Assembly (NCBI GenBank): GCA_024231215.1
Contig: JAAEQR010000003.1
Location: forward strand, 22,660-86,659
Direction of reading: 5' to 3'
DNA from: PVC group bacterium
GTDB taxonomy: Bacteria; Omnitrophota; Gorgyraeia; B26-G9
DNA length: 64,000 bases
Position 1 is the first letter of the stretch. Every line of letters starts with the position of its first letter. The translations under genes were made by a program, and so were the position numbers. This document shows positions 32,897 through 58,096 of the stretch, one piece after another. The notes under the pieces were generated by a model. It was not told where the DNA came from. It saw nothing but the letters and a program-made list of their open reading frames with translations, and did no database searches.

Positions 32897-32958
32897 AGCC
32901 TTCCTTTAGATGTATTAATACATATTTTCTTTATTTGTAATAAGATAGGATTATTGAT

Positions 32959-32987
32959 TTGCTGAGAATAGAAAAATATGGTATACT
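32959..32987 (+). promoter_or_regulatory. Cluster promoter P1 (TTGCTG-17 nt-TATACT, embedded in ATATGGTATACTT)
   Basis: Read directly from the sequence. It shares the ATATGGTATACTT block with P2-P6. Confidence 0.6.
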
Positions 32988-33020
32988 TCACTACTTTTTT
33001 TAGATCTATGTAAATTAAAA

Positions 33021-34271
33021 ATGACTGGATATGAAATGCGAAAAATATTAAAAATAACCGGATGTATTTTCCTGTTAGCGGGAGTTTTATGTAATGCGCA
33101 AATTGGGGTTTCTCAAGAAGCGTGTTCTAATAATTTACTATCTCCGCGGCTTTCATTACAGCAGGAACATTTTCTTAGGATTTTTTCTGCAGATAAAATT
33201 CCGGCTATTAGACGGACTACGGATAGTAAAACTACTTATTTACCTGCGGATTATAGTTTGGAGGTAAAGGAAATACTTGTCCAGGTGAATTATTGGGGAA
33301 CTATGGAATATGTGATAGACGAAATACATCAAAAACTTCCGCAAGATATTGCGATGGTTATCATTTTTAATGAACGCATTAAGCCGTATTTAGATTATGC
33401 TAAAAACAAGTTATCTTCTCGAAAAGTAAGATTTATAATGTCTGAAAAAATCAGCGTTTGGGCAAGAGATAATTATATCTATTCTTTTTCTAAAAACAAA
33501 CCGATAATGGTGTTTCCAGACGGAGAGTTGCTGCGTAATATGATAGAATTGACGACAGATAAAAGAGCTATCTATAAACTCGCGAAGAAGTTGAAAATAA
33601 AAATAAAACAGGCAAAGTTTCATTTTACCGCGGGTGATATTATGACGGATGAAGAAAATATATTTGTCGGTGCGGCTACTATGCAGGATAACTTTAATAG
33701 ATATAAAATGTCTTGGAAGGAAACGTCTAAAAAAATGCAGGCTTTATTTGGAAATCCGATAGAAGTTCTGCAATTAGATGTAAATGATATTGATAATGTG
33801 CTTACTCTTTTACCGGGCAAGCGGGCAGTATTGGGTAATAATGAGCAGTTTGATAGTTTTTTAAAGGGCCATTATCATGAAAAAGTTGGTGACATTAAAA
33901 AACGTTTACTGGAGTTAGGATATGCGGTTATTGATATCCCCTGGCGGCCGCATGAAATTGATCATGGCCATGCTGATACGACTACGCTGATCTCTTATAA
34001 TAATGTTGTCTTTTTAGACCGTGATAGAATACTTTTGCCTCAGTATGGAATACCGGCAGATAAGGAAGCCATAATGACTTGGGAGCAATTAGGCTATAAG
34101 GTTATCCCGGTTCAGGCATTTTGTAACGGGGAGCATGGCGGAAGTATTCGTTGTTTTACGAATATTATCAACGCTGATTTTATTAATTATGATTCCGAAG
34201 ATTCTTCTAGAATATTCTGTCCCTCAGTTTCTCTTCAGCCGTTAGAACAATTGATTGAAATGGCTATATAA
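33021..34271 (+). CDS. Tagged-family member 1: exported agmatine/peptidyl-arginine deiminase-like protein (guanidino-group-modifying fold)
   Basis: VWARDNY, FHFTAGDIMTDEENIFVG, HGHADTT and GEHGGSIRCFTN (catalytic Cys context). The leader is followed by LLSPRLSLQ and the C-terminus is QLIEMAI. An alternative start is the ATG at 33036. Confidence 0.75.
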   Translation: MTGYEMRKILKITGCIFLLAGVLCNAQIGVSQEACSNNLLSPRLSLQQEHFLRIFSADKIPAIRRTTDSKTTYLPADYSLEVKEILVQVNYWGTMEYVIDEIHQKLPQDIAMVIIFNERIKPYLDYAKNKLSSRKVRFIMSEKISVWARDNYIYSFSKNKPIMVFPDGELLRNMIELTTDKRAIYKLAKKLKIKIKQAKFHFTAGDIMTDEENIFVGAATMQDNFNRYKMSWKETSKKMQALFGNPIEVLQLDVNDIDNVLTLLPGKRAVLGNNEQFDSFLKGHYHEKVGDIKKRLLELGYAVIDIPWRPHEIDHGHADTTTLISYNNVVFLDRDRILLPQYGIPADKEAIMTWEQLGYKVIPVQAFCNGEHGGSIRCFTNIINADFINYDSEDSSRIFCPSVSLQPLEQLIEMAI

Positions 34272-34372
34272 AGTTCAGAATCCACCCCATTTTTACAAGC
34301 TACTTAAAAAATTGTCAAATCTAAGCCGTAACTAGCTGCGAGTAAAAGGGATATGTAAAACATGTCCTTACC

Positions 34373-34401
34373 TTGACAGAAGTATATACCTATGGTATAC
34401 T
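34373..34401 (+). promoter_or_regulatory. Cluster promoter P2 (CCTTGACA-17 nt-TATACT)
   Basis: TTGACA at 34373-34378 and TATGGTATACTT, with the hexamer at 34396-34401. Confidence 0.7.
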
Positions 34402-34457
34402 TTTGAGTCTTTTTATTTTACCTAATAAAAATATATAAAAAAACAAGGAGATTTGTT

Positions 34458-37400
34458 ATGATTTCAGTATTAAGTCGTAATTTTTTCTTTAGAACAACCG
34501 CAATTATTTTAATTCAAGCATTTTTATTAATAGACATATCGTGGGCCTGTGGTGGGAGGCTTAATGATATTGATGACAGTAAGGTTTTTGAAGATAACTA
34601 CCTTGCTCCTTCCTTAATTATTAATCACTCTGACTTTTCAAGTTATTTTTCTAGTCCAGAAGATATTACTGCGAATCAATTCAGTAGTTTAAGTTCTGCA
34701 GAAATCGAAACCTTAACATATAAACTTGGCCTAACTCTTACCAATGAAAAGCAAGCAGCAAGAGAGATTGAAGAGATTAAGAAAGAACAATTTAAAATAA
34801 TGGATCAGTTTAGTGAAGGGTTAGAGAACAAGGAGCAACGTGAAAAAGCTTTGAATCAGGTAGTAAGAGATACCAATAAAGCGATTGATACTTTAAGGGC
34901 TGATTTTGTTGTGCAGGAGAGGGCAAAAGCTGAGTTAAAAATTAAAGCAGAAGAGTTGAAAATAGAAGCAGAAATTGCAAAGCTAAAATTAGGCAAAGAG
35001 AGAAGAGAAAACTTTGCGAAAGAAGCTCAGCAGGCATATGATCAGGAAATCGCCAAGCTTATTAAAGAAATCAAAGATGCCGCGAAATCAAAAAAAAGAA
35101 AGGCAGAGGAAGAGTATAAGGAACGTGTTAGCAAAATTGAGGAATGTGTTAGCAAAATTAAGGAGGGACTGCTTGAAGGAATATACATATCTGATTCGCT
35201 GGCTCAGGATATTGAAAAAATCAAGCAGGATACAAATGCCAGGATCCAAAAGATAGCTGCGGATATGCGTACTGAGAAGGGCTTTTTAAGCGATACAGTC
35301 AGGGGTATTATTATTGGCGTGTTTAAAATCGCCTGGTATTGGCCAAAAGGTAAGATAGCTGTTTTAAAGATTGAATTGAGCACTCATGAAGGTTATGATC
35401 TTAGCAAGTCTCGTAGTAGATTTAAGGCAGAAGTTAAGGAAATTAATAAATCTGCCAAGGCAGAGATAGAAGCGGTTAGGGACGGAAAAGATAAAAGGAC
35501 ACATAAACTTAAAGAAGAGCTTGATCAGGCTGGTTTAAATATTGAAAAAGATAAAACGAGGCTGGAACAGCTGGAATCAGATAAGAAAAAACAGCCGGAA
35601 ACAATTAGACAAGAAGTAGAAAACGCAATAAAAGAAGCTCAGAAAGATGCAGCTTTAAAAATCCTTAGCGGTCTTCAAGGTGATGAATATGTAGAACTCA
35701 GGCTGAAGGCTTTAGAAACTGTTTTGCCGCTGGTTAAATTATACGAAGACCGCCAGTCAGAAGGCCAGATGGACATGAGAATTGAAAGTAGGGAGGAGTC
35801 CATTGCCGCTTTATTTTTACGCGCGTATCGGGAAGGGCTTAGCGCTATTTCGATTACCGATGCTAAGCAATTACCTTCTCCTGAGGCGGCTAAGGCACAG
35901 CAGATTGTGAACAGACATATCAAGCGTTCTCGAAAGAAAAATGAAGATAAAAGAAAACCGCTGAAATATATTCCGGGAATCGAATTAGTCGTGTCTCTGG
36001 ACGGAGAGAAAGTTCCGGTAATTATCTATCTGCCGGAAAATTCACGTAACTTGGCGAACGATAAGACTGTTCAGGATTTGCTGGCGCGTAGAAGACCGTT
36101 TATGTTACAGGAACTCGCCCATATTTTATACGTATATAACGGAAAGATTGCTTTAGCCGATGCTCATAAATCTCTAAAAGCAGCGCAGATATTTTTTGAA
36201 CGCATGGCGGAATTTGTAATTAAAGGCAGGATCCCGTTGCGGTCCGTATTAGGGGTCGTATATTATGAAGGAACAAAGCAAAAATCTGATGAGCCGGACA
36301 GTCCGGAGAAACAGAAGCTGATGGAGTATATCGCCCGGCTTTGCGTACACCATCCGGTTTATAAACAGAGTGAGCTTTTCTTTCTGCCGGGAACTAATTT
36401 CAGCGGTAGTGTAGATCTGGAAAAGGAAAATATGCTCGGCAGCGGAGCGGATCGTCATCCGCATGAAACGAGTTATCGAGATAGGATTTTAAAGGCAGTA
36501 AATTATAAATCGGGATTATGGGAGAAGATTGTTTATGAATATGAGGGGTTTTTAAAAAACGTTTATATTTGGGGTTTAATGATTACGGCAGGTGTAACGA
36601 TTGTTGGGACACATTCACTTATTTTGGCCGGACTTTTTGCGGTGATGTTCTATTATTTGATTGCGACATATCCTGGATCTAAAAAAAGTGCATTAAAACA
36701 ACAGGTGCAAGTAATTCCCCAGGCAGATATTGCGTCAGAGGAAATGATGAAATACAAAGATTGGAAATTTGATCCGGCTAAAATTCCTCAACCCAAACCA
36801 GAAAGCGAAAAGAGTGCTTCTAAATGGGGAAAAGTGATGGAAACCGCAGGAAATATTTTTGATAAACTGGATATATTAGAAAATCTTTTTTATAGAGCGA
36901 CAGCCGGGACTAAGTATTTTGCCGGCAGTTTGAGAGAGCATTTAAATAAAAATAAGATCACAAATAACTTTTTCAGAAACGATTTGAAGCCCTGGCAAAA
37001 ATGGACTTTCTTTATTTCCAGTTTGACAATAAGCGGAGTATTGGCCGGTTGGTTGGCCGGCAGTGCATGGCTCGGAATTAAAATAGGGGCATTAGTCTGG
37101 GGTATTGCAATAGCGTTAAAGATTTTTGTGTACATAACCGATTGGGATATGGTGCTTTTACTTTTTGGATTTGCTGGTAGTGGGATAGCCGGATGGTTCT
37201 TGGGAAAAGACTACCCGTGGCAAGGAGCTTTTATTGGTCTTACCGGGTGGACGGGTTTTTTAAATAGGAAAGGAATAATATCCTTTTTTAGAGACAGAAT
37301 AAGAAAAGAGATTGATTTTTATAAACGTTTTAGGATGCTTGGGCCCAAGGCTGTTTTTATCCGAAAGACTCTGAAATTACAGCAGGATATGGCTAAGGGA

Positions 37401-38723
37401 ATTGTATATGTGAATATGGTGGGAAAATCGTTTGGCCTGAGAAAAATAGAGGTTGTGAATGTTTTGGCTAAACATGGTTTTGAATATGTAAAGATACAAG
37501 ATGCCAGCACATTGGTATTTGCCAAAAAGGACGTGATGAGAAGGATCGGAGCGGAATTTTTGAAAACAGCTTTAGAAAAATCCGGCACTTCCTGGGAGAA
37601 GATGACCGAGACTTTAAATAAGATCACAGAACATTTTGAAAAAATGCTGGTCGAGGTAACGCTGAGCACAGGGAACGGCAGGACACGTAAAATGTTTATC
37701 CCGGATCCGAGAGAAATTGCCGATGATCAGGTTATGTATAAGCTTTACCGGATTATCGCCATGTACAAGGCACAGGGATTAGTTTTGGAAAATCCCCAAA
37801 CCCGTCTGGTGGTTGATGTAAAAGGAGCGGACGGACAAGTCAGACCAGTTACAGCAAACGAATTGGCCTTAGTTATGAATAAATATTTTGACATTGTAGT
37901 ACCCATGCCGGAGGAGGGAAGTACGCCGGTGAAATCCAGGATTAGTCAGGGGGAGGTAAGGATACTGGAAGCTACCGGACAGCTTAATGAACTTTGGGAA
38001 CAAGGGGTTAAATCTTTAGTTTCGATCAACCTTGGTTCGCAGATCAGAGTGATTGTTGCGGAATTGCTCAAAGATGAAAAAATCGGAACAATTCGGGTAA
38101 CCTCTTATCCGACAGAATTAGGGCGTGACCTGATTGATTTTAGCTCCGAGGCCGGGAAATCGGTAGAAAGTTTGATCAGTGATCAGGCAATATTGGAGGC
38201 GGCGGAAGAGATGGGCTTACTGGAAACGATTGCGCGAGAGTTTAATATGGATAAGGAGAGCGTAACCCCTGAGCATATCGGACTGATCGCTGCCGGGCGA
38301 AATCCTTTTAATCAGGAGCAAGAGTTATACCAGCCTGTAGAGGTTAAAAAGTCGACGATGCATATGGGCAGTAAATATTTTGGCGGAGACACCGGGTCTA
38401 AGCTTGAGCGATTAGAGGCTGTGGCCCAGGAGTTATGGAAAAAGATAGATCGCAAAATAGCGGATTTTATCATCAAGCTGGATGCGGATAGAGCTGCGGA
38501 ACCGGGAAAGACCTCTTATCATCTTAGCGGAGAAACAATGACTTTGGATATCGCTAAGTTAAGAACGGAAAATTTGCGCCGGTTTCTTGAAGAGAAAAAG
38601 GCTGAGCATATCGAATTTTCCTGCGGGGAAGACCCCCTATCGGGAAACGCAATAATCGACCATGATTTAGAGCGGTCTTCTGAGATTACCGAACCTGCTT
38701 TGTTGGTTGAAATGGCGATTTAG
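34458..38723 (+). CDS. Tagged-family member 2: 1421-aa protein with a K/E-rich coiled-coil region and an internal multi-TM block
   Basis: Leader IILIQAFLLIDISWA, YLAPSLIIN box, Lys/Glu-rich heptad-like sequence at about nt 34720-35700, 6-7 hydrophobic helices at about nt 36560-37265, and C-terminus LLVEMAI. Confidence 0.85.
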   Translation: MISVLSRNFFFRTTAIILIQAFLLIDISWACGGRLNDIDDSKVFEDNYLAPSLIINHSDFSSYFSSPEDITANQFSSLSSAEIETLTYKLGLTLTNEKQAAREIEEIKKEQFKIMDQFSEGLENKEQREKALNQVVRDTNKAIDTLRADFVVQERAKAELKIKAEELKIEAEIAKLKLGKERRENFAKEAQQAYDQEIAKLIKEIKDAAKSKKRKAEEEYKERVSKIEECVSKIKEGLLEGIYISDSLAQDIEKIKQDTNARIQKIAADMRTEKGFLSDTVRGIIIGVFKIAWYWPKGKIAVLKIELSTHEGYDLSKSRSRFKAEVKEINKSAKAEIEAVRDGKDKRTHKLKEELDQAGLNIEKDKTRLEQLESDKKKQPETIRQEVENAIKEAQKDAALKILSGLQGDEYVELRLKALETVLPLVKLYEDRQSEGQMDMRIESREESIAALFLRAYREGLSAISITDAKQLPSPEAAKAQQIVNRHIKRSRKKNEDKRKPLKYIPGIELVVSLDGEKVPVIIYLPENSRNLANDKTVQDLLARRRPFMLQELAHILYVYNGKIALADAHKSLKAAQIFFERMAEFVIKGRIPLRSVLGVVYYEGTKQKSDEPDSPEKQKLMEYIARLCVHHPVYKQSELFFLPGTNFSGSVDLEKENMLGSGADRHPHETSYRDRILKAVNYKSGLWEKIVYEYEGFLKNVYIWGLMITAGVTIVGTHSLILAGLFAVMFYYLIATYPGSKKSALKQQVQVIPQADIASEEMMKYKDWKFDPAKIPQPKPESEKSASKWGKVMETAGNIFDKLDILENLFYRATAGTKYFAGSLREHLNKNKITNNFFRNDLKPWQKWTFFISSLTISGVLAGWLAGSAWLGIKIGALVWGIAIALKIFVYITDWDMVLLLFGFAGSGIAGWFLGKDYPWQGAFIGLTGWTGFLNRKGIISFFRDRIRKEIDFYKRFRMLGPKAVFIRKTLKLQQDMAKGIVYVNMVGKSFGLRKIEVVNVLAKHGFEYVKIQDASTLVFAKKDVMRRIGAEFLKTALEKSGTSWEKMTETLNKITEHFEKMLVEVTLSTGNGRTRKMFIPDPREIADDQVMYKLYRIIAMYKAQGLVLENPQTRLVVDVKGADGQVRPVTANELALVMNKYFDIVVPMPEEGSTPVKSRISQGEVRILEATGQLNELWEQGVKSLVSINLGSQIRVIVAELLKDEKIGTIRVTSYPTELGRDLIDFSSEAGKSVESLISDQAILEAAEEMGLLETIAREFNMDKESVTPEHIGLIAAGRNPFNQEQELYQPVEVKKSTMHMGSKYFGGDTGSKLERLEAVAQELWKKIDRKIADFIIKLDADRAAEPGKTSYHLSGETMTLDIAKLRTENLRRFLEEKKAEHIEFSCGEDPLSGNAIIDHDLERSSEITEPALLVEMAI

Positions 38724-38772
38724 CGATAATAGTTTATAACTATCTTAAAATAAATAAGTTACATTCTATCCC

Positions 38773-38801
38773 TTGACGAAGTATGCCTTATATGGTATAC
38801 T
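38773..38801 (+). promoter_or_regulatory. Cluster promoter P3 (CCTTGACG-17 nt-TATACT)
   Basis: TTGACG at 38773-38778 and TATGGTATACTTTAC, with the hexamer at 38796-38801. Confidence 0.7.
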
Positions 38802-38861
38802 TTACTACCTATTTTTAAATAATCCAAACTATAATAATAACCTATTGGGAGAAAACAAGTT

Positions 38862-42191: not shown

Positions 42192-42202
42192 AAGAGGATA
42201 TT

Positions 42203-44296: not shown

Positions 44297-44379
44297 TCAA
44301 TTTGTACCCAGTCGTAAACCCGCCGCAAAATTTATTTCTAACCATCTGAAAATAAAAGACTTAAAAATCTCGCCAGACC

Positions 44380-44408
44380 TTGACAGGTTGTATTTCATAT
44401 GGTATACT
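44380..44408 (+). promoter_or_regulatory. Cluster promoter P4 (CCTTGACA-17 nt-TATACT)
   Basis: TTGACA at 44380-44385 and ATATGGTATACTTTACC, with the hexamer at 44403-44408. A GC hairpin gggccg/cggccc (44436-44456) lies in the leader. Confidence 0.7.
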
Positions 44409-44480
44409 TTACCGCTTTTATAATAATTAATGTAGGGGCCGCGCTCGGCTCGGCCCGAATAGTCTATAGAAGAGGTAAAT

Positions 44481-46349: not shown

Positions 46350-46363
46350 AGGAAGGTAAAAAT

Positions 46364-49183: not shown

Positions 49184-49215
49184 GTGACAAGTTACGAGTG
49201 ACAGGTGAGAAGTTA
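49184..49215 (+). repeat. Short tandem AGTGACARGT-type motif block immediately after the stop codon
   Basis: GTGACAAGTTAC (49184-49195), GTGACAGGTGAG (49198-49209) and AAGTTA (49210-49215). A related block occurs at 60734-60778. Confidence 0.4.
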
Positions 49216-49217
49216 AT

Positions 49218-49255
49218 GCCCCCCTTCCGGGAATATCCGGGAGGGGGTTTTTGTT
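49218..49255 (+). terminator. Strong intrinsic terminator
   Basis: GC-rich stem ccccccttccgg / ccgggaggggg (about 11 bp) followed by tttttgtttt. Confidence 0.9.
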
Positions 49256-49380
49256 TTGTACTCGTATAGTTTGGCAATCATCCATCGCTATGTGGCGCTT
49301 AAGCCGCAGCGCATCTTTAACTCTCTGCGAATAAAACACTTAAATCTTCCATTTTTTTATAATAAAATCCCTTCTAGCTA

Positions 49381-49409
49381 TTGAAAAAAGCCAAATCATA
49401 TGGTATACT
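49381..49409 (+). promoter_or_regulatory. Cluster promoter P5 (TTGAAA-17 nt-TATACT)
   Basis: TTGAAA at 49381-49386 and ATATGGTATACTTTACC, with the hexamer at 49404-49409. Confidence 0.65.
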
Positions 49410-49475
49410 TTACCGATTTTATTTATCATTTTTTAGCAACTTTTTAAAGTGTATTTAAGAAAGAAGGAGTTTTTT

Positions 49476-52400
49476 ATGTTATCGACGAAAAATAATCAAA
49501 AAATTGGTTTCAAATTAATATCTTTTGTTCTTATCCAGGCTTTTCTTTTAATGAATGTTTCCGGTGCCTTTGCCGGACTGGCTGTGGCTCAAAACAGCGT
49601 GGAAAATCAAACTACACTCGCTCCGAATATTGCGATCAGCCATAATGCTTTGCAAGGCATGTTTATGGTTGAACAAGCTCCGGTGATCAAAGTGCCGGAA
49701 AGTTTAATCGACGTAGATTATTTTATGAAGACAGTACGTCGGGCATACTTGACTCGCAAGGTTAATGCTGTGAAAAAAGCTGAAGATTTAGAAACTGCGA
49801 TGCTGGGGATCGTGGAAAAGTATACATCTGCGGATACTGATAAAGTGCGTAGTGCGATCATTACTAAAGTTCGCAAGGCTGGTAAAGAACTTCCTATATA
49901 TAAAGAAGTGGAAAAAATGCTGACTAAAAAGTCTCTGCATATGGAAATGATAAAACATGTGCTTAAGAAAAAACAACTTGGTGAAAAGGTATTTACGGCT
50001 AATAGTGCTGGTGAGTTGTTGAAAACTTTTGGCGTGGATGAAGAGACGCAGCAGCAGGCAATAAATGATGCTAAGCAGACAATAGGTCTTGGTGTAAAAC
50101 TTACCCGTAAAGAACTCAAAAACATTTTAACCCAGATTCCAAGTAAAGAAAAAATTCCCTCTTTGGCTATAGAATATCTGGATAATAAATACAAAATTAA
50201 AGAATGGTGGGGGGTGCAGCTATTTAAAGGAATATGGATGTGTAAGATCGGACAAATGTCTTGGCCGGTGTTAGGGGTGAAAATAGTTCGCTTTGTAAAA
50301 GAGAATGATTTGCTTTCTAAATTCTGGGGAAAGTTTGTGGCTTGGTGGGAAGGCTCATTTAAAAGTTTTATTATTAACTATATAAAAGGAATAAAATTCC
50401 AGTATTCCCAGGGCTCAGGGTATAATTTCGAAACAGCGCGTAACTGGCTTGATACTTTACTTCGTCTTTATATAGATAAATCTGATCGTGAGGATGCTGA
50501 GATTGACCAGGCGCAGACAAGAGAATATATATTTGACCAAATGCGAAAAAAAGGGATTGTTCCGGAAGAGTATAAGCTTTTATTTGCGTCAATGGTTTCA
50601 AAACAGCCTGTGCCTGAAAACATCGAAGGCTTTGCTAAGACAGCAAGTGAAAAGAGATTAACAAATGAAGATATAAAAAAATTGACAATTATGCTTGATA
50701 AGGTAATTGACCGGGCAGAAATCGCGATTTCTCAATACGAATTATCAGGAAATTCCCGGACAGATGAAAAAGCCTGGGATATGCTGGATAAGCGTTTTGA
50801 AGTATATTTAAGCGTGGTTGAGAAACCGTTAATTACGGTGTTTGATATGTGTTCTAAATATCGCATTATCAGTGATATGGTATTTATGATGTTTAAAAAT
50901 TCAGGACTGCTGCTAGAGAATGACAAATATTTATTTAGCCGGATAGGCGATAAAAATATATTTGAAGATGTAAAAATACAGATCAGAGAAAGAATAGAGG
51001 ATAACCGGAAAATATTATCCGGGAAATTAGACAAAAACGATTACACCATAACTACAGCTGGCAACAACCTTAAAATAATTCTCCAGTATATTCTAATGAT
51101 AAAGCAGACAGCTTTTGCAGATGGAAAAGTTGATTTATATGAAGCTAAAAACTGGTTTGGTAAGTTATTTGATTTTTATAAGCAAAGTACTCCTGAATCT
51201 CGCAGGGATATTATTAAAAGACTGAAACGCGCGGAATTGATCCTCAGCGATAAAGATGAAGCATTGTTTAGTGAGTTGCTGAAATCAAAGCCGGGAGTTA
51301 CTGAAAAAATTATTATTGCCATGACTAAAAATGTAAAGACAAAGAGAGCCGGGGAGTCGAAAAGACAGAAATTGATAAAACAGATTCTAAGCGATAAATA
51401 TAGATATGTCTCCAAAATAAACGCACAGGTATCTGATGAGACTGTATTAAAATCAGTAGATAAAAAAGAATTAATCGGAGTTATCGATAGGTTTGTGCGG
51501 GCGCAAAACCTGATTATGGAAGCGGATAAGGTATACCTGGCCGCGGCAACCCCAGAAGAATATGCAGTCGCAGGGGAGATATTAGAAGATGTCCTAAGTA
51601 TTTATAAACTGACGAAATATCGTATGGAACGAAATATTATTTTTAAAATGCTGATAGAGGCAAGATTAGTAACGCGTGAACATAAAGGATTATTTGATTT
51701 GCTATATGCAGGTTCTGCAACCGCAGTCGAAGATATTAAAGATGCAGTTACGGCTCAAGTACAACAGCGCAAAAAAGATTTGGAAGAGTCTTTTATTGAA
51801 ATTCGTGAAGCTGTGAATAAGTCAGTAGAGCTTTATGAGAAAGCTGCGGAGTTATCTAAGGAGCAGATTGATGAATTTCTTAATGAAAAAATGGCTAAAG
51901 TTATAAGTGATTTTACCCAGGAGTATTCGTTTGAACAGGTATTAGAGAGTATCCGAAGGATGGAGACAGGAGAAAAAATAGATTTCTTAGTTGATTTATA
52001 TGAAGACGATAAAGCTAGGCCTGATCAAAAGAAAAGAATATTTGAGATATTAAAAGAAGTGGGATTGCTGGATGGTTTTTGGGTAAATGTTCACAATTTT
52101 TTCAGTAAGCTTGGGCTTACTAAGCGTTTTGCTGCAATTAAGGAACGTTTAAAAGAAACGATCCTGGGTAAAGTTTACTCTGTGCTAGGTGAAAAGAAGC
52201 TGAAGCTCGGGGGGCAGGCTATAGTTTATGCGAAGGCAGCTCAGGCTTTGGATCCGGCGTTAAAGATATATGTCAAAGAACCTTTAGCCAGGCAATTTAT
52301 AACTGAGAGACTGGAAGCGGCAAATTTAATTGATAATTCGATTCAGATGAAGGCAATGTTCTGGTTCTTAGCCGGAGCTAAGCCGTTTGAACCAACTAAT

Positions 52401-55019
52401 ATTATTATCCGGTTAATAAATATTCCGATAAGTGCAATCGGATTACTTATACAGTATCCGGCAAAATTGTTGATTAAATTCATGGTAAAAATAGTCATCA
52501 CTCATCGTCAGATACAAGAATCAGCACGGATTGAGCAGCTGATTATTGCCGCAAGGAAAAATATCGAAGAGGCTGTTAGTTTGTATTCTAAGGGTGATAA
52601 ACCAACCGCGGAAGTAAAAATAGATGCAGCTTTAGATACTTTTGGAGATGCAAAACAGACGCAGGCTAAAATTTTGCAGGCTTTTAAAGATAATGGTTTT
52701 CTTACGGAAGATGACACAGAGTTGAATAGCTTGTTTGATCAGTTGGCACAAAGCACAGATTATGCGCAAAAAGAATCTGTGAAGGCGGAGATTGTACAAA
52801 AGATAAGCATGAATCAGCCGGATCCTCTTCCGAGCGTAGACGTAATACTTGAAACAATAATTCCGGCGGCAGAGCAAGCATATATTGATAAGAATTGGGC
52901 TAGTTTGGAAGCTGCCCTGGATGTCTTTTTGAATTTTTATGAAAAGGTAAAAGAGCCTAGGGAGGAAGAGATTGTATTAAATGGTTTTGCGGGTGCTTTT
53001 CGTGAACATGATATATGGAGCGATACCCTGGATGTATTATTTGAAAAATTAAGAAGTCCGGGGCAGAATTATGAGCAGATTAGAAATGATATCAAAAGTT
53101 ACATTCAGAAAAAAATGAGTGGCACAACTCCGGAAGTGCCTGATTTAGATCAGGCACTTACTGCAATAGCAGAAGCGACGGGGTTATATGCGGATAAAAA
53201 ATATGAAGAAGCCGAAGCTGAATTACTTAAAGTATTGCAGTTTTATGCATTAAATACAGTAAGCGAACGAGAGCGTACAATTGTCATGGATAATATTAAG
53301 CCTTTGTTGCCTACAGAGGATAAGCAGTTAGAAGCGTTTTTTAGATCAATTGCCGATCAAAATACTCCGGATGAAGATAAACAAAGTTTGATAGCTGCGA
53401 TTATAGAAAAAATAACTATTTATCAGAAGTCCCAAGTTGATCCGACTCCGGAAATGCCGGATTTGAATAAAATACAGAGGGATGTGAATAAGGTCGTTAA
53501 TTTATATAAAGAAAAGCAAGATAATACTGCGGAAGAAATATTAGGATCGATACTGAATCTGGCAATAACTCACAAAGATAATGCAGAGGTTATAACTCCA
53601 ATATCCAATATGCTGGTGACTGCGGGATTATGGAATGATGCGGATAAGCAGTTGTTTTCGGAATTATTGCAGAAAAATGACTTGCAGGGGATAAAAGATA
53701 AGATTTCTGCAATCGTATTAAAACATAGAAATGAAATAAGATCAGCAACCGAATATATTAATACTGTAAAAGTTTTTTGTTACGAAAGAAAGTTTAATTG
53801 GGAAGTTGCGTCACAGTCGATTGATTCAGCCTTAACTCTTTATGAGGAAAATGCATGGGTGAGAGATTCAATAGCAGTAGCTTTAACCATGGAAAAAGCA
53901 TTGCTGGATAATGTTACCCGAAATGAATTAATTGGGAAGTTTAATAATGCGATAAAAAATAATGAAAATACAACCGGGATAAAGGGTGAGATAAAAGCGG
54001 CTATAAAAACTTATGCAACAGCGCAGTTAGAGAAAGTAGAGAAGGTAAAGCAAGTTGCGGCGAAAGATAAAGTTAGCAGTTTGACAATAATTATGCGTAA
54101 CAGCTATTACGCGAATGATCTGGATCTTCCGATACAGGCACGGGATGATTTGTTAGCAACATATGTTAAGGTTATGCCATTGCGGAGCTTAATAAAAGAA
54201 CAAATTATAGAAGCTGATTTAATGACAGAAGAGGATGTGAATAGATTATTCGGAGCTTTGGATAGGGTTTCTTCTGATGATGAAATAAAGGATGCACTAG
54301 ACGCTATCGAGAATAATATGTTAACCCATGTGTTGGAGCAACGGCTTGATAAGGCGCAGACCACTATTATACTTATAGCTGATCGTTATGAGGTGGCGGT
54401 AAAAGATGAAGACTATAAGAAAGCAGAGGATCTTTTGAATTATCCTTTGGCTGTGGCGTTAGATTGTAATGAGCATGCAGAGGCTATCTTGACGGAACTG
54501 GAAAAACAGAAATTAGTAACTACTAATGAAGTTAAAGGACACTTCCGGGACTATGTGAATTCCAGGGATGCCGGGTATCTCGATCTTTTAAAACGTAAAA
54601 TAACCGAAGCACAAAAAGCTCTTAAACAGATAGAAGAGCCGAAACAGCCGGATGATGGACAGCAGAATGATATTATTCAGTTGAAAATGAAAGTGGTAAA
54701 CTTTATTGCTGAGGCATGTGGTAATTATTATGTAACTGAAGATTTTGACGCGGCAGGAAAATCTCTTAATGAAATATTGAATGCATATATGGAACATCCT
54801 GAAATACGTGATTTTATCACTGAAATCATGGAGAAGAATGACTTGATGAACGATACTATTAAGGGGTTATTTAAAGACTTAGGAGTCTTGTCCGATAATA
54901 ATATTTCCGAACAACAGATTGATAGTATAAGAGGAAAGATACAGGATGCTGTAAAAGCAAATGTAAAAGCAGTAAAAAGAAATAAAAAGATGCTGGAATT
55001 AATTGGCATGGCGATTTAA
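49476..55019 (+). CDS. Tagged-family member 7: giant (about 1847 aa) alpha-helical repeat protein
   Basis: I prefer the ATG at 49476 (AAGGAG Shine-Dalgarno sequence 7 nt upstream) over the GTG at 49449. Leader VLIQAFLLMNVSGAFA, TLAPNIAIS box, C-terminus ELIGMAI. There are at least 12 degenerate repeats of about 90-110 aa. Confidence 0.85.
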   Translation: MLSTKNNQKIGFKLISFVLIQAFLLMNVSGAFAGLAVAQNSVENQTTLAPNIAISHNALQGMFMVEQAPVIKVPESLIDVDYFMKTVRRAYLTRKVNAVKKAEDLETAMLGIVEKYTSADTDKVRSAIITKVRKAGKELPIYKEVEKMLTKKSLHMEMIKHVLKKKQLGEKVFTANSAGELLKTFGVDEETQQQAINDAKQTIGLGVKLTRKELKNILTQIPSKEKIPSLAIEYLDNKYKIKEWWGVQLFKGIWMCKIGQMSWPVLGVKIVRFVKENDLLSKFWGKFVAWWEGSFKSFIINYIKGIKFQYSQGSGYNFETARNWLDTLLRLYIDKSDREDAEIDQAQTREYIFDQMRKKGIVPEEYKLLFASMVSKQPVPENIEGFAKTASEKRLTNEDIKKLTIMLDKVIDRAEIAISQYELSGNSRTDEKAWDMLDKRFEVYLSVVEKPLITVFDMCSKYRIISDMVFMMFKNSGLLLENDKYLFSRIGDKNIFEDVKIQIRERIEDNRKILSGKLDKNDYTITTAGNNLKIILQYILMIKQTAFADGKVDLYEAKNWFGKLFDFYKQSTPESRRDIIKRLKRAELILSDKDEALFSELLKSKPGVTEKIIIAMTKNVKTKRAGESKRQKLIKQILSDKYRYVSKINAQVSDETVLKSVDKKELIGVIDRFVRAQNLIMEADKVYLAAATPEEYAVAGEILEDVLSIYKLTKYRMERNIIFKMLIEARLVTREHKGLFDLLYAGSATAVEDIKDAVTAQVQQRKKDLEESFIEIREAVNKSVELYEKAAELSKEQIDEFLNEKMAKVISDFTQEYSFEQVLESIRRMETGEKIDFLVDLYEDDKARPDQKKRIFEILKEVGLLDGFWVNVHNFFSKLGLTKRFAAIKERLKETILGKVYSVLGEKKLKLGGQAIVYAKAAQALDPALKIYVKEPLARQFITERLEAANLIDNSIQMKAMFWFLAGAKPFEPTNIIIRLINIPISAIGLLIQYPAKLLIKFMVKIVITHRQIQESARIEQLIIAARKNIEEAVSLYSKGDKPTAEVKIDAALDTFGDAKQTQAKILQAFKDNGFLTEDDTELNSLFDQLAQSTDYAQKESVKAEIVQKISMNQPDPLPSVDVILETIIPAAEQAYIDKNWASLEAALDVFLNFYEKVKEPREEEIVLNGFAGAFREHDIWSDTLDVLFEKLRSPGQNYEQIRNDIKSYIQKKMSGTTPEVPDLDQALTAIAEATGLYADKKYEEAEAELLKVLQFYALNTVSERERTIVMDNIKPLLPTEDKQLEAFFRSIADQNTPDEDKQSLIAAIIEKITIYQKSQVDPTPEMPDLNKIQRDVNKVVNLYKEKQDNTAEEILGSILNLAITHKDNAEVITPISNMLVTAGLWNDADKQLFSELLQKNDLQGIKDKISAIVLKHRNEIRSATEYINTVKVFCYERKFNWEVASQSIDSALTLYEENAWVRDSIAVALTMEKALLDNVTRNELIGKFNNAIKNNENTTGIKGEIKAAIKTYATAQLEKVEKVKQVAAKDKVSSLTIIMRNSYYANDLDLPIQARDDLLATYVKVMPLRSLIKEQIIEADLMTEEDVNRLFGALDRVSSDDEIKDALDAIENNMLTHVLEQRLDKAQTTIILIADRYEVAVKDEDYKKAEDLLNYPLAVALDCNEHAEAILTELEKQKLVTTNEVKGHFRDYVNSRDAGYLDLLKRKITEAQKALKQIEEPKQPDDGQQNDIIQLKMKVVNFIAEACGNYYVTEDFDAAGKSLNEILNAYMEHPEIRDFITEIMEKNDLMNDTIKGLFKDLGVLSDNNISEQQIDSIRGKIQDAVKANVKAVKRNKKMLELIGMAI

Positions 55020-55048
55020 TTGGTGAATGGTTGATCGTGAATAGTTTT

Positions 55049-55070
55049 TGGGCCGGTTGAGACCGGCCCA
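55049..55070. other. GC-rich hairpin (tgggccggt / accggccca) without a downstream U-tract
   Basis: 9-bp stem with a tgag loop, flanked by T5 upstream and A3 downstream. It lies between the giant gene and the next family member. Confidence 0.4.
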
Positions 55071-55088
55071 AACTGATATATAATTAAT

Positions 55089-56639
55089 ATGAAAATAATT
55101 ACAAGTATAATCATACAGATATTTTTATTTACTACCTTGTGCTTTGGCGCGGGAGCGAATAGCTATCTTTCCCCTGAGATATCCATGGCTAGTGAAGGAG
55201 TAAAGGACAGGATATCTCAGGTATCCGAGCAAGATAATACTGCGTCTATTTTTCCTACCTATGATGTGATTAAAGAACTCAAGAAAGAAAATTATATTTC
55301 AGGTAAAATTGGCCAGCATGATTTTGCCGGAACAGTAAGACGACGGAAAGGTTTTTTATTTATCCATAATGTATATAAGCCTCAGAGCAAGAAAGATATC
55401 CGATGCTGGGGCGGTGTTTTATTTAAGGTTCCGTATGAAATAATACCTTCTGAAGACGAGGATAAAGGTGTGTTTTTGAAAATGCGTATAAAAGATGTAT
55501 CTAAAAACGGAAAGTTTTCTCTTACCTTGCAATGGCCGGAATTAAAGAATGATAGTTATGTGCGGCTTGTCTATGATACGGATAAAACAGGGGAGATCAC
55601 TATAAACTTATCTAAACTGGTTAAGGACAGAGGATTGCCGGCTGGGGATCAGTTTTATGTACAGGTATTGCCGGTTGGTCATAATGCTAAAGTAGAAATA
55701 GATGAATTTGTTTTAGAAAATATTCCGGTGCGGCAGGAAGAAAATGCTGTGTATAACCGGCATATATACCCTATATATAAAGAAGGGGAATATCCAATTA
55801 ACTTAACTTCGTATCAGGCGGAACAAATTCGCGTGTTTTTGTCTGCAATTTACTCGATTTCAGAAGAGAGCAAAAGGAAAGATGTTTCCAAAGTAGAAAT
55901 AGGTGGTGAGTTGTTTGATTTGCTTAATCAGATAATGGAAGAGCAGGAGAGTTTATGTCTTTTAATGGAATTGGGATATGAAGAGCCGCTGTTGAAAATA
56001 TTAACAGTATTAAAAAAGAAGTTTTTGCGTATGTCTAACATAGCAGTAAAGGTTGAAAAGCTAAAAATAGAAATGCAGAGTAATTCTCGAATGTTAAGAG
56101 TAAGAAGACTGGAAAAAGAGTGGTCTTATATTAATAATCAGTTCGAAGAAAAAAATGCGCAGTACACTGAGACTTTACGCCAGCATCGGGTATTTGGTTC
56201 ACCTCATCCGGGAAGCTATGATGAGATTATGTCCTTGTTTGAAATAAAGAATCATTTGTTTGGAGAATTGAATCGGACAAAAGATGAGTTATTTCGTAAG
56301 GTGGTTGAATACTATAATCATTGTCGTAACTTTTGTAAATTTAAAAGGACCTTAAAGCAGAAGATGGAAGAGATAAATACCATATTAAACAGCAAAGAGG
56401 AGGCTAATATATATTCGAATCCGGAATTATTAGCAAAAGAATTTAAAAAATATTCGTCTTTGATGGGCTCTCCTTCGAAGGCGAGCCGCCTGACTGCCGA
56501 AGATAAAAAATCTGTTATAAAGATGGTTATGTCTTATATTTCTTCGCAATCCGATAGACGCGAGGAAAATATCACTTCGGTGAAATCAATTAAAGAGATT
56601 TCTCGTCCTGCTTTATCTTTCGTGGAATCAGCAATATAG
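55089..56639 (+). CDS. Tagged-family member 8: 516-aa protein of unknown function
   Basis: Leader SIIIQIFLFTTLCFGAGA, YLSPEISMA box, C-terminus SFVESAI. There is no obvious Shine-Dalgarno sequence. Confidence 0.75.
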   Translation: MKIITSIIIQIFLFTTLCFGAGANSYLSPEISMASEGVKDRISQVSEQDNTASIFPTYDVIKELKKENYISGKIGQHDFAGTVRRRKGFLFIHNVYKPQSKKDIRCWGGVLFKVPYEIIPSEDEDKGVFLKMRIKDVSKNGKFSLTLQWPELKNDSYVRLVYDTDKTGEITINLSKLVKDRGLPAGDQFYVQVLPVGHNAKVEIDEFVLENIPVRQEENAVYNRHIYPIYKEGEYPINLTSYQAEQIRVFLSAIYSISEESKRKDVSKVEIGGELFDLLNQIMEEQESLCLLMELGYEEPLLKILTVLKKKFLRMSNIAVKVEKLKIEMQSNSRMLRVRRLEKEWSYINNQFEEKNAQYTETLRQHRVFGSPHPGSYDEIMSLFEIKNHLFGELNRTKDELFRKVVEYYNHCRNFCKFKRTLKQKMEEINTILNSKEEANIYSNPELLAKEFKKYSSLMGSPSKASRLTAEDKKSVIKMVMSYISSQSDRREENITSVKSIKEISRPALSFVESAI

Positions 56640-56667
56640 TTAATATTTATAGGAAAAAAATTAAATT

Positions 56668-57936
56668 ATGAGTAGTAGATTTGGAGTAATATTTAAAATC
56701 ATTGTAATAGTACTTGTGCAGGCATTTTTGACGTTAGATCTTGCTTGGGCTGCGCAGGGGAATCTGCGTTCGTTTCAAGCGGATGATACTATTTCTCCTT
56801 ATATCCAGGTCGAAAATATTTCTTTGCAGGCCGGATTTTCTGTTTTATTTACTAAGGTTGCTGTGAAAGATATTGCTCAGATTGAAACTATTGAGAGTAT
56901 AGAGCAAAACACTACTAACTCATCCATCCTATCTCAAATCAGAAATTGGATGGAAAGATTTTTTCTAAAAATCACATTTTCTTTAGGACAGATATTGTTA
57001 GGGTGGACTGGACTTGTTTGGGCGCAGGAGCATATAGAAGAATATAACGGCCCTTATTTTGATAACGTATGGTCGTATTGGTGGTATCGGACATGTAATT
57101 TTTTTACAAATCCAGTTGTTTTTAAGACTGTATTGGTTATCTCAGGTGTAGCAATGGTTTTTTTAGTCGCGAGTTTTGTTGTAGCTAACCTGATGACAAG
57201 TAAAAAAGATAGAAGCAATCTGGGAATGGTGATATTGATTGGTTTGATTGGTTATTTGGTTCTAAGCAGTGATATAGGCAATAAAGTACAAGACTTTTTC
57301 TTTCCCGATGTTATGCCTGATATGAAGACTTCGACACAAAAGAGTATTATGGAGCACAAATTAGGACTCCCTGGAGTAGGCATACAGACAAATGCGGTGC
57401 ATTCGGAAGTAATACAAGAATTCACCTCAAAAGGAAAAACAAGGAAAAATGTAATTATAAACGGAAAGATAGTAGGAGATAATATTCCTCAGAAGAGTTT
57501 TACACTTGATCAGAATGAGATTGTCTTGGCTGTATTGTTCATGCTTGCAGGGATTTTTTTAATTGATCATGCAATAAACAAAAATAAAAGAGGTCAGAAA
57601 ACATTAATAGATATATCTTTTGCTTTCTGGGGCCCGATAATAGAGGAGATAATTGAGATATTGAAAGCGTCATCTCAATCTGCAGGCCAGCTGGTAACGA
57701 TTAATGAATCAGACATAGCTGATTTACCATCAGAGACTGAGACTGTGTTGGATCAGTCAGGGGTGTTTTTCTCGGATAAGAATTCTGCCCAGGGAGAGCT
57801 TCAGCTTTATATGGAACAATTCGGGGCGCTTCTTTATCCTACAAACTGGGATGATTTTCGAAAAGCAGAACAGGTGCATCGTAACCGGCTGAATAATTGT
57901 AGTACATCATATGTTTTGCTGGAACAGGCTGTTTAG
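56668..57936 (+). CDS. Tagged-family member 9: 422-aa polytopic membrane protein
   Basis: Leader VIVLVQAFLTLDLAWA, TISPYIQVE box, about 4 internal hydrophobic helices, C-terminus VLLEQAV. Confidence 0.8.
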   Translation: MSSRFGVIFKIIVIVLVQAFLTLDLAWAAQGNLRSFQADDTISPYIQVENISLQAGFSVLFTKVAVKDIAQIETIESIEQNTTNSSILSQIRNWMERFFLKITFSLGQILLGWTGLVWAQEHIEEYNGPYFDNVWSYWWYRTCNFFTNPVVFKTVLVISGVAMVFLVASFVVANLMTSKKDRSNLGMVILIGLIGYLVLSSDIGNKVQDFFFPDVMPDMKTSTQKSIMEHKLGLPGVGIQTNAVHSEVIQEFTSKGKTRKNVIINGKIVGDNIPQKSFTLDQNEIVLAVLFMLAGIFLIDHAINKNKRGQKTLIDISFAFWGPIIEEIIEILKASSQSAGQLVTINESDIADLPSETETVLDQSGVFFSDKNSAQGELQLYMEQFGALLYPTNWDDFRKAEQVHRNRLNNCSTSYVLLEQAV

Positions 57937-58013
57937 CTCCATAACTTTACGCCTTCCAATAAATATCAATTGCAACCAATTGTAAATAAATAGCTTACAG
58001 AAATAGACCTGCC

Positions 58014-58042
58014 TTGACAAGCCTGCCTATATATGGTATACT
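58014..58042 (+). promoter_or_regulatory. Cluster promoter P6 (CCTTGACA-17 nt-TATACT)
   Basis: TTGACA at 58014-58019 and ATATGGTATACTTTA, with the hexamer at 58037-58042. Confidence 0.7.
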
Positions 58043-58096
58043 TTAAAACCATTTTTAATGTGTAATTTATTGGGATAATTTGAGTTATGAATTTTA

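What the first reader, a model, noticed from the sequence alone, without database searches (positions are those of the whole stretch)
32959..58042. Six near-identical promoters partition the cluster into transcription units, with a seventh at the distal paralog
Each unit is preceded by (C)CTTGAC(A)-17 nt-TATACT, embedded in the longer shared block ATATGGTATACTTTA(C). The hexamer pairs are at 32959/32982, 34373/34396, 38773/38796, 44380/44403, 49381/49404 and 58014/58037, with exactly 17-nt spacers.

The first 10-20 transcribed nt are also similar:
- TTTACTACCTATTTTTA
- TTTACCGCTTTTA
- TTTACCGATTTTA
- TTTAAAACCATTTTTA
- TTTTGAGTCTTTTTA
- TTTAAAGTCTTTTTA, for the 15252 paralog

The implied units are [33021], [34458], [38862+42203], [44481+46364], [49476, possibly +55089+56668] and [58097].

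One caveat applies. The rex promoter (TATGGTATATT) and the cspA promoter (GAGTATACTT) share part of the -10 context. Some of the similarity may therefore just be the organism's consensus extended -10.
Basis: seen in the sequence. Interest (0 to 1): 0.55.

Follow-up and report, generated by a model that had tools for sequence, protein, structure and literature searches.

The report
Conserved promoter-leader of tagged gene family
Seven strong, ordinary-type bacterial promoters drive a cluster of doubly tagged genes in an uncultivated Omnitrophota bacterium; their core is the phylum's generic promoter, but a short T-rich stretch at the transcript start accompanies this gene family in other Omnitrophota genomes too.

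Summary
All seven sites exist at the stated coordinates, each with TTGnnn, a 17-nt spacer and TATACT. TTG-N20-TATACT occurs 10 times against 0.66 expected. Two of the six -35 hexamers are not TTGAC (TTGCTG, TTGAAA), and the seventh site lacks a correctly spaced TG.

The window is an NCBI MAG labelled "PVC group bacterium"; relatives are Candidatus Omnitrophota. The -35/TATGG-TATACT core is not family-specific. The identical block lies upstream of CvpA, MazE, Gp49 and HTH genes in other Omnitrophota MAGs, and in many Clostridia.

The family-associated part is what follows the -10: TTAnnRCC-T(4-7)-A, with the T-run starting 7-10 nt after the hexamer.
- It occurs in 15 of 19 tagged-family promoters (7 here, 12 from other genomes) and in 0 of 18 control promoters (p = 5e-7).
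- A profile built only from the 12 foreign sites recovers exactly the seven window sites.

Only two unit boundaries carry intrinsic terminators, so the partition is leaky.

Most likely these are near-consensus sigma-70 promoters whose T-tract start region modulates initiation or escape. That mechanism is inferred, not shown. Interest is moderate: a new variant of a known kind.

The parts
32959..33002 (+). Promoter plus leader box of unit [33021]: TTGCTG-17-(ATATGG)TATACT-TCACTAC-TTTTTTTA
   Evidence: nhmmer with the foreign 12-site profile gives E = 4.9e-4.
34373..34415 (+). Promoter plus leader box of unit [34458]: TTGACA-17-(CTATGG)TATACT-TTTGAGTC-TTTTTA
   Evidence: nhmmer E = 2.1e-6.
38773..38817 (+). 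Promoter plus leader box of unit [38862+42203]: TTGACG-17-(ATATGG)TATACT-TTACTACCTA-TTTTTA
   Evidence: nhmmer E = 2.7e-5.
44380..44420 (+). Promoter plus leader box of unit [44481+46364]: TTGACA-17-(ATATGG)TATACT-TTACCGC-TTTTA
   Evidence: nhmmer E = 1.2e-5.
49381..49421 (+). Promoter plus leader box of unit [49476, probably +55089+56668]: TTGAAA-17-(ATATGG)TATACT-TTACCGA-TTTTA
   Evidence: nhmmer E = 3.8e-7.
58014..58057 (+). Promoter plus leader box of unit [58097/58118]: TTGACA-17-(ATATGG)TATACT-TTAAAACCA-TTTTTA
   Evidence: nhmmer E = 1.8e-7.
15176..15218 (+). Weaker seventh promoter at the distal paralog 15252: TTGCAA-17-(CTAGTG)TATACT-TTAAAGTC-TTTTTA. It has no correctly spaced TGn.
   Evidence: nhmmer E = 0.042, with only the -10 and leader aligned.
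32858..32899 (+). Intrinsic terminator after the TraF-like outer-membrane protein gene, isolating the first tagged unit from upstream transcription
   Evidence: A 15-bp GC-containing hairpin followed by U7.
49220..49257 (+). Intrinsic terminator after gene 46364-49183. It is the only strong terminator inside the cluster.
   Evidence: A 12-bp stem with 9 GC pairs, followed by TTTTTGTTTT.
33021..60730 (+). Ten tagged-family genes driven by these promoters: 33021, 34458, 38862, 42203, 44481, 46364, 49476, 55089, 56668 and 58097. The paralog 15252-16244 lies outside this range. Each has the N-terminal tag ..IIQAFL..AWA..L(S/A)PxLxI and the C-terminal tag ..L(V/I)ExAI*.
   Evidence: Profile search returned 274 cluster representatives.

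Best explanation
What it is: seven sigma-70 (RpoD)-type promoters with 17-nt spacers and a TRTGn-type extended -10 (TATGG-TATACT). Each stands in front of the first gene of a short unit of the doubly tagged Omnitrophota protein family.

The -35/extended -10 core is the generic optimum promoter of the phylum. It is also common in Firmicutes, so it signals strong RNA polymerase binding rather than family identity.

The family-associated part is the 12-16 nt that follow the -10: TTAnn-R-CC-T(4-7)-A.
- A purine sits 6 nt after the hexamer and is the predicted +1.
- The T-run begins 7-10 nt (mode 8) after the hexamer, at about +3/+4 of the RNA.

This promoter-plus-T-tract module recurs upstream of tagged-family genes in other Omnitrophota genomes. 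It therefore marks a co-controlled gene set.

Inferred mechanism (not shown): tight promoter binding combined with a weak rU:dA initial hybrid makes initiation or promoter escape the regulated step. This could act through UTP-sensitive slippage or start-site choice, or through a promoter-proximal pause on the T-rich non-template strand. Expression of all family units would then be tuned together.

Internal promoters, rather than terminators, define most unit starts, so transcripts probably overlap.
For: Shown:
- Sites, spacing and excess over chance.
- The core block is generic: more than 118 loci, including 10 Omnitrophota MAGs where it precedes Colicin_V/CvpA, MazE, Gp49 and HTH_17 genes.
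- The N-terminal tag profile finds 274 cluster representatives, nearly all full-length ones also ending in ..EQ(A/S)I. The source is labelled PVC group and the relatives Candidatus Omnitrophota.
- In loci found by protein homology only (L119-L129), tagged genes carry TTGcaa-17-TRTGG-TATACT followed by TTAnnRCC-TTTT.
- Position counts over 19 promoters: T17 T15 A16 n n R17 C11 C12 T17 T18 T18 T14. A T-run occurs in 15/19 against 0/18 control promoters, Fisher p = 5e-7.
- Per-gene upstream test: window 6/8 tagged against 0/14 non-tagged (p = 4e-4); other loci 8/23 against 0/21 (p = 0.004).
- An nhmmer profile from the 12 foreign sites retrieves exactly the seven window sites (E from 1.8e-7 to 0.042). 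The next hit has E = 0.4, and cspA and rex are not retrieved. Alignments extend into the leader. Generic Omnitrophota promoters with the same core align only to the end of the -10, at 9.5-18.8 bits.
- Among 118 generic promoters with the identical block, TTTTA follows in only 4.
- A metagenome scan for the core plus a T-run gave 121 sites. At least 14 are followed by a tagged N-terminus, against 0-1 of 118 without the T-run requirement.
- Spacers are unrelated and the DNA encoding the N-terminal tag is only 63-75% identical between paralogs. Conservation therefore reflects selection on the elements, not recent copying.
- The T-run is fixed relative to the -10 (7-10 nt) but lies 26-66 nt from the start codons.

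Background for the inferred step:
- Reiterative initiation at homopolymeric start regions (PMC8812562, PMC7039003, PMC12709180).
- NusG-dependent pausing on a non-template TTNTTT motif (10.1101/2022.10.28.514324, PMC11602163).
Against: - No transcription start site or expression data exist for this organism, so +1 is only predicted.
- The box is absent from 4 of 19 tagged promoters with a recognisable core. Many tagged genes with long upstream gaps (15 of 23 in other loci) show no such promoter.
- T-run promoters also occur upstream of some non-tagged genes, for example an HD-domain gene in L248 and CvpA-like genes in L132/L161.
- Two 'non-tagged' genes carrying the box were reclassified as tagged only after inspection of their protein ends. 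This slightly favours the hypothesis.
- Fourteen metagenome sites were selected with a pattern derived from the window. They were therefore kept out of the statistics.
- With a 3-nt RYC start, classical slippage (as at codBA or upp) would be disfavoured unless initiation is at the C.
- A strict TTNTTT motif is present in only about half of the window boxes.
- The PFOR promoter at about 60863 also has a T-run, though directly after the -10.
Confidence: 0.7

Rival explanations
1. Nothing family-specific is present. All seven are simply the organism's consensus housekeeping promoter, and the leader similarity is AT-rich composition.
For: The core block is generic in Omnitrophota, Clostridia and Poribacteria. 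cspA and rex share -35 and -10 features. The PFOR promoter also has a T-run next to its -10.
Against: A T-run at 7-10 nt occurs in 15/19 tagged promoters against 0/18 controls, and in only 4/118 generic promoters. The foreign-site profile picks only the seven sites in 128 kb of both strands. Positions 6-8 after the -10 (R, C, C) are conserved, and these are not A/T.
Confidence: 0.1
2. The T-tract box is a DNA operator for a dedicated regulator (repressor or activator) of the tagged-gene regulon. It would overlap +1 to +12, as the Rex box does at the rex promoter of this same window.
For: The box has a fixed position relative to the -10 and its non-A/T positions (RCC) are conserved. The rex promoter carries its palindrome GTGAATAAATTCAC at the equivalent place, 21301-21314. 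A weakly recurrent upstream AATAAGTT motif, 20-25 nt before the -35, could be a second site.
Against: The box has no dyad symmetry. No regulator gene is consistently linked to the clusters. T-run length varies from 4 to 7, which is unusual for a protein-binding site.
Confidence: 0.2
3. The box acts in the RNA. A 5'-terminal RCCUUUUUA would act as a binding site (S1, Hfq or CSP), a stability determinant, or an anti-SD-like element pairing with the ribosome-binding site.
For: The sequence would be at the extreme 5' end of every family mRNA. RCCUUU resembles part of the 16S 3' tail. In 2 of 7 window leaders the U-run pairs with the SD region in the MFE fold.
Against: The distance to the start codon varies from 26 to 66 nt, while the distance to the -10 is fixed. 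Folds are weak (-3 to -8 kcal/mol apart from an unrelated GC hairpin) and inconsistent. There is no Rfam match.
Confidence: 0.12
4. The similarity is by descent. A promoter plus signal-peptide cassette was recently duplicated or homogenised by gene conversion among the paralogs.
For: The genes are paralogous at their 5' ends and clustered.
Against: The 11-nt spacer cores and the regions upstream are unrelated. The DNA encoding the N-terminal tag is only 63-75% identical, whereas the functional positions are 100% identical. The same architecture is found in distant genomes.
Confidence: 0.04
5. The promoters are recognised by an alternative sigma factor (sigma-54 or ECF), given the sigma-54 activator gene at 29851 just upstream.
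For: A sigma-54-interaction-domain protein is encoded at 29851-30852.
Against: The elements are canonical TTGACA-17-TATAAT-like with TGn. There is no conserved GG-N10-GC or GAAC/CGTC motif. The same core drives unrelated genes.
Confidence: 0.03

Closest known systems
Extended -10 ('TGn', Gram-positive '-16 region' TRTGn) sigma-70/sigma-A promoters
   Same: TTGACA-like -35, a 17-nt spacer, TG at -15/-14 preceded by TR (TATGG/TGTGG), and a TATAAT-like -10 (TATACT). The sites are intergenic and co-oriented with the downstream gene.
   Different: C at -10 position 5 is the preferred form here. The conserved sequence continues 12-16 nt past the -10 (TTAnnRCC-Tn-A), which is not part of the general promoter model.
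Reiterative-transcription (slippage) promoters: E. coli pyrBI, codBA, upp; B. subtilis pyrG (PMC8812562, PMC7039003)
   Same: A homopolymeric tract (T4-7) in the first roughly 10 transcribed nucleotides, at a fixed distance from the -10. A choice of purine or pyrimidine start positions lies just upstream of the tract.
   Different: The genes are not pyrimidine-metabolism genes. The predicted purine start leaves a 3-nt RYC 5' leader, which in codBA-type promoters suppresses slippage. Nothing has been tested experimentally.
NusG-dependent promoter-proximal or leader pauses on non-template TTNTTT (B. subtilis; 10.1101/2022.10.28.514324, PMC11602163)
   Same: A T-rich non-template motif in the 5' leader. 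About 20% of B. subtilis NusG pauses lie in leaders. A pause about 11 nt downstream would fall at +14 to +20.
   Different: A strict TTNTTT is present in only about half of the boxes. The motif lies so close to +1 that sigma may still occupy the NusG site. It is unknown whether Omnitrophota NusG reads T-tracts.
Leader elements recruiting NusG paralogs to long operons (RfaH ops, UpxY, LoaP)
   Same: A conserved leader element shared by a set of long or giant genes. Tagged-family members reach 6,383 aa (P0096), and one of them is a SecA_DEAD-domain protein.
   Different: The ops sequence GGCGGTAG is absent from the leaders; its single window match at 4627 lies inside a histidine-kinase gene. The box lies at +3 to +10 rather than tens of nucleotides downstream. 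No NusG paralog was examined.

Membership tests
sigma-70 extended -10 promoter | -35 hexamer resembling TTGACA, 16-18 nt upstream of the -10 | tested here: met
   All seven sites have TTGnnn with a 17-nt spacer. Matches to TTGACA are 6/6 at 34373, 44380 and 58014; 5/6 at 38773 and 49381; 4/6 at 15176; and 3/6 at 32959.
sigma-70 extended -10 promoter | -10 hexamer TAnnnT resembling TATAAT | tested here: met
   TATACT (5/6) at all seven sites.
sigma-70 extended -10 promoter | TG dinucleotide one base upstream of the -10 (TGn) | tested here: met
   TGG-TATACT at six sites. Not met at 15199, which is GTG-TATACT.
sigma-70 extended -10 promoter | Transcription starts 5-9 nt downstream of the -10 | not testable with these tools
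   No transcript data are available. A purine lies 6 nt after the hexamer in 17/19 family promoters.
Reiterative-transcription-controlled promoter (pyrBI/codBA/upp type) | Homopolymeric tract of at least 3 nt within the first few transcribed nucleotides | tested here: met
   T4-7 starts 7-10 nt after the -10 (about +2 to +5) in 7/7 window promoters and 15/19 family promoters. This depends on the predicted +1.
Reiterative-transcription-controlled promoter (pyrBI/codBA/upp type) | Transcripts with extra non-templated U residues, and NTP-dependent output | not testable with these tools
   Requires 5'-end sequencing or in vitro transcription.
NusG-dependent pause site | TTNTTT on the non-template strand 6-11 nt upstream of the pause position | tested here: inconclusive
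   By inspection of the leaders, a strict motif is present at 32995, 34410 (TTATTT) and 49417 (TTATTT). It is absent as a strict motif at 38812, 44416, 58052 and 15213.
RfaH/ops-type leader element | ops consensus GGCGGTAGnnTG in the leader | tested here: not met
   The only window match to GGCGGTAG is at 4627, inside a histidine-kinase gene.
sigma-54 promoter | Conserved GG at -24 and GC at -12 (TGGCAC-N5-TTGCW) | tested here: not met
   TGG is present, but there is no conserved GC 10 nt downstream across the seven sites (alignment).
Known cis-regulatory RNA (Rfam) | Match to a curated covariance model at the gathering score | tested here: not met
   No matches in the whole window.

The most novel reading that the evidence does not exclude
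The TTAnnRCC-T(n)-A start box is the cis-mark of a phylum-wide regulon. The regulon would comprise all proteins carrying the N-terminal IIQAFL..AWAGG..LSPxLxI tag and the C-terminal ..EQAI tag, including giant SecA_DEAD-domain genes and secreted copies of 'cytoplasmic' enzymes. The box would work as a nucleotide-sensing or pausing switch at initiation. It would couple expression of this presumed effector arsenal to the physiological state (for example host contact) of these predatory or parasitic nanobacteria.
Probability: 0.15. Interest if true: 0.75.

Novelty: new variant of a known kind. Interest (0 to 1): 0.45.

Why it matters
Omnitrophota are uncultivated, and nothing is published about their promoters or gene regulation. 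Searches of the giant-gene and phylum papers found no mention of promoters or of this tag pair.

A compact sequence signature combines the generic strong promoter with a family-associated start box. It offers three things:
- A way to predict transcription units and co-regulated genes in MAGs.
- A cis-element that can be tested with heterologous RNA polymerase.
- An independent, non-coding marker for a large, unexplained protein family that includes giant genes.

If the T-tract proves to be a slippage or pausing switch, that regulatory principle would extend from pyrimidine genes and riboswitch leaders to a probable effector regulon.

Tried and rejected
- My first pattern, TTGAC-N17-TATACT, was mis-spaced and gave 0 hits. 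It was corrected.
- Looking up the source contig by exact protein failed twice. The source was identified through cluster names instead.
- A word-indexed homology search with the 622-aa protein 44481 found nothing. The exhaustive profile search with the N-terminal tag succeeded.
- Pairing of the SD region with the 5' U-run: folds are weak and inconsistent. Rejected as a general mechanism.
- A -10-like TAnnnT element after the T-run (sigma-dependent pause): by inspection of the leaders, it is present in about 8 of 14, close to chance. Not pursued.
- The sigma-54, ECF and ops readings were rejected on sequence.
- Rfam and tRNA scans were empty. Tandem repeats were irrelevant.
- A terminator function for the GTATAC palindrome plus T-run was rejected: the stems are AT-only and not adjacent to the T-run.
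- Upstream motif AATAAGTT: 6 of 33 sites against a shuffle maximum of 5, with a positional preference at -20 to -25 from the -35. This is too weak to include.
- An unbiased consensus from other promoters in the 10 generic Omnitrophota loci gave only 13 sites, too few to be informative.
- NCBIfam has no model for either tag.
Full report
**Observation**

TTG-N20-TATACT occurs 10 times against 0.66 expected from shuffles. Eight of these are intergenic: the seven reported sites and the cspA promoter at 512.

All seven have exactly 17-nt spacers. Six have TGG immediately before TATACT. ATATGGTATACTTTA is exact at four sites.

- The -35 at 32959 is TTGCTG, not TTGAC.
- The -35 at 49381 is TTGAAA.
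- At 15199 the TG abuts the hexamer, so it is not a spaced TGn.

**Context**

Every gene behind these promoters belongs to one family. It is defined by an N-terminal signal-like segment (..IIQAFL..AWA..) followed by L(S/A)PxLxI, and by a C-terminal ..L(V/I)ExAI stop.
- The window holds eleven members and no others.
- Their bodies are unrelated: PAD-like, PEP-utilising, DHH, patatin and TPR domains, or no Pfam match.
- An exhaustive profile search with the N-terminal tag found 274 cluster representatives. Nearly all full-length ones also end in ..EQ(A/S)I, and they reach 6,383 aa.
- The window's own proteins are NCBI entries of a MAG labelled "PVC group bacterium" (contig of 103,999 bp). The relatives are "Candidatus Omnitrophota bacterium".

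**Is the block family-specific?**

The core is not. Most were Clostridia, with 10 Omnitrophota and 4 Poribacteria MAGs.

In the Omnitrophota loci the identical block sits 13-47 nt upstream of unrelated genes: Colicin_V/CvpA (twice), MazE antitoxins (twice), a Gp49-like toxin, an HTH_17 protein and others. In none of these ten loci was the downstream gene a clear tagged-family member; the ORF after the L076 site gave only a weak 10.7-bit match.

The -35/TATGG-TATACT block is therefore the general near-consensus extended -10 promoter. In the window, cspA (TTGACA-17-TATACT) and rex (TTGACA-16-TTATGG-TATATT) share it in part.

**What is family-associated**

The nucleotides after the -10 track the family. 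I retrieved contigs encoding tagged proteins from other genomes purely by protein identity (L119-L129).

Their tagged genes are preceded by TTG(C/T/A)AA-17-(T/C)(A/G)TGG-TATACT, followed by TTAnnRCC-TTTT(T)A. Two genes first scored as non-tagged but carrying this module proved to be family members with mis-called starts.

Over 19 promoters (7 from the window, 12 foreign), none selected for the T-run, the positions after the hexamer read T17 T15 A16 n n R17 C11 C12 T17 T18 T18 T14. The tests gave:
- A T-run of at least 4, starting 7-10 nt after the hexamer (mode 8): 15/19, against 0/18 control promoters from the window and from Omnitrophota loci. Fisher p = 5e-7.
- Per gene, using upstream regions: 6/8 against 0/14 in the window (p = 4e-4), and 8/23 against 0/21 in the foreign loci (p = 0.004).
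- Among the 118 generic promoters with the identical core, TTTTA follows in only 4.
The next hit is the phosphatase promoter at E = 0.4. The alignments run into the leader. The generic Omnitrophota promoters align only up to the -10, with lower scores.
- A metagenome scan for the core plus a T-run gave 121 sites. At least 14 are followed within 500 nt by a tagged N-terminus. These score higher with the independent profile than the other sites that passed the same pattern (median 20.8 against 9.7 bits).

The association is strong but not exclusive. Some T-run promoters precede non-tagged genes, and many tagged genes lack the module.

**Not recent duplication**

The 11-nt spacer cores and the upstream regions are unrelated. 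The DNA encoding the N-terminal tag is only 63-75% identical between paralogs, while the functional positions are identical. The pattern is therefore selection on defined elements.

**Transcription units**

- Genes 42203, 46364 and 56668 follow their predecessors by 11, 14 and 28 nt. None has a promoter hit, so the operon assignments are reasonable.
- Only two boundaries carry intrinsic terminators: after the outer-membrane protein gene (32858-32899) and after 46364 (49220-49257).
- The gaps at 34272, 38724, 44297 and 57937 have no convincing terminator. Read-through from upstream units is likely, so the promoters add to transcription rather than cleanly partition it.
- The 69-nt gap before 55089 holds a GC hairpin without a U-tail, and a TTGAGA-16-TATAAT match ending 4 nt before the ATG. 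Its status is open.

**Mechanism (inferred)**

The T-run keeps a fixed distance to the -10 (7-10 nt) but a variable distance to the start codon (26-66 nt). This argues for a role at or just after initiation rather than in translation.

A near-consensus promoter followed by an rU:dA-rich initial hybrid is the arrangement known from reiterative-initiation promoters (PMC8812562, PMC7039003, PMC12709180). A T-rich non-template strand is also the signal for NusG-dependent leader pauses in B. subtilis (10.1101/2022.10.28.514324, PMC11602163).

I favour this class of mechanism, in which initiation or escape is the regulated step shared by all family units. The evidence is sequence only. The main alternatives are an operator for an unknown regulator and a 5'-terminal RNA element. 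For comparison, the rex promoter carries its Rex palindrome at the equivalent position.

Several readings were tested and rejected: SD sequestration, sigma-54, ops, known Rfam motifs, and a sigma-dependent pause element.

**Novelty**

The promoters themselves are ordinary. The conserved start box tied to a phylum-specific tagged family appears undescribed. The Omnitrophota giant-gene and phylum papers mention PilZ neighbours and SecA_DEAD domains, but neither promoters nor these tags.

I rate it a new variant of a known kind, of moderate interest.

Noticed in passing
window 15252-16244 and 33021-60730; proteins P0001-P0150: The driven genes form a large Omnitrophota family with paired tags. 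The N-terminal tag is K-IIS-VLIQAFL-LD-AWAGG followed 10-25 aa later by (C/T)L(S/A)PxhxI. The C-terminal tag is ..L(I/V)(E/G)Q(A/S)I-stop. There are 274 cluster representatives, up to 6,383 aa. The bodies include 'cytoplasmic' enzyme domains (PGK, PGI, PGM, PPDK/PEP-utiliser, radical SAM, patatin) and SecA_DEAD giants. Neither NCBIfam nor Pfam has a model for the tags.
   Followed up: partly
L119, L123, L124, L126, L127, L129: Small PilZ-domain genes sit immediately next to tagged genes in most foreign loci, as reported for giant genes (10.1101/2023.11.21.568195). None is present in the window cluster.
   Followed up: no
window 32939-32947, 38752-38760, about 57985-57995; L119, L170, L199, L218, L243: The motif AATAAG(T/A)T(A/G) recurs 20-25 nt upstream of the -35 in some tagged promoters. 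AATAAGTT occurs in 6 of 33, against a shuffle maximum of 5. It could be an upstream element or a regulator site, but the statistics are weak.
   Followed up: partly
window 55020-55091: Between 49476 and 55089 lies a 9-bp GC hairpin (GGGCCGGTT..GACCGGCCC) without a U-tail. A TTGAGA-16-TATAAT match ends 4 nt before the ATG of 55089, which has no Shine-Dalgarno sequence. This may be a processing or stabilising hairpin, or a leaderless internal start.
   Followed up: partly
window 49184-49218, 55020-55045, 60731-60780: C-poor stretches with repeated GTGA(C)A / AAGTTA(C) words follow the stop codons of the last genes of units. Examples are GTGACAAGTTACGAGTGACAGGTGAGAAGTTAATG and GGGAAGTTACAGGTAAAGAGTGGCAAGTAAAGGGTGACAAATTACAAG. 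Unexplained.
   Followed up: no
window 21272-21316: The rex promoter (TTGACA-16-TTATGG-TATATT) is followed directly by the palindrome GTGAATAAATTCAC. This looks like a Rex operator and suggests autoregulation.
   Followed up: no
window 15065-15110 (- strand): The divergent DSP-type phosphatase lipoprotein gene (14470-15078, - strand) has ATATGATATACTTTA as its -10 region, but no recognisable -35 and no T-run box.
   Followed up: partly
L100 5223-5254; L110 2508-2539; L052 646-677: In Omnitrophota toxin-antitoxin promoters, the generic ATATGGTAT of the extended -10 is one arm of a perfect palindrome. The other arm lies in the spacer (for example ATACCATAT-TCA-ATATGGTAT). This is probably the antitoxin operator built into the consensus promoter.
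   Followed up: no
L119 about 13270-13300, 15700-15730, 18510-18540: A near-identical GC hairpin, CTTACTTCCGCCCCCGGAGCGGAAGTAAG, is repeated after three successive tagged genes. It is a repeated terminator-like element, absent from the window.
   Followed up: no
L122 about 330-580 and 5320-5570: Two adjacent tagged genes (1,528 and 1,496 aa) share an almost identical upstream region of about 230 nt and the same N-terminus. This region lacks the promoter and box described here. It is a local duplication with a different leader.
   Followed up: no
L030 7478-7600: In one Omnitrophota MAG the generic block is followed not by an ORF but by a GC-rich structured-looking sequence, possibly a non-coding RNA gene. 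It was not checked against Rfam.
   Followed up: no
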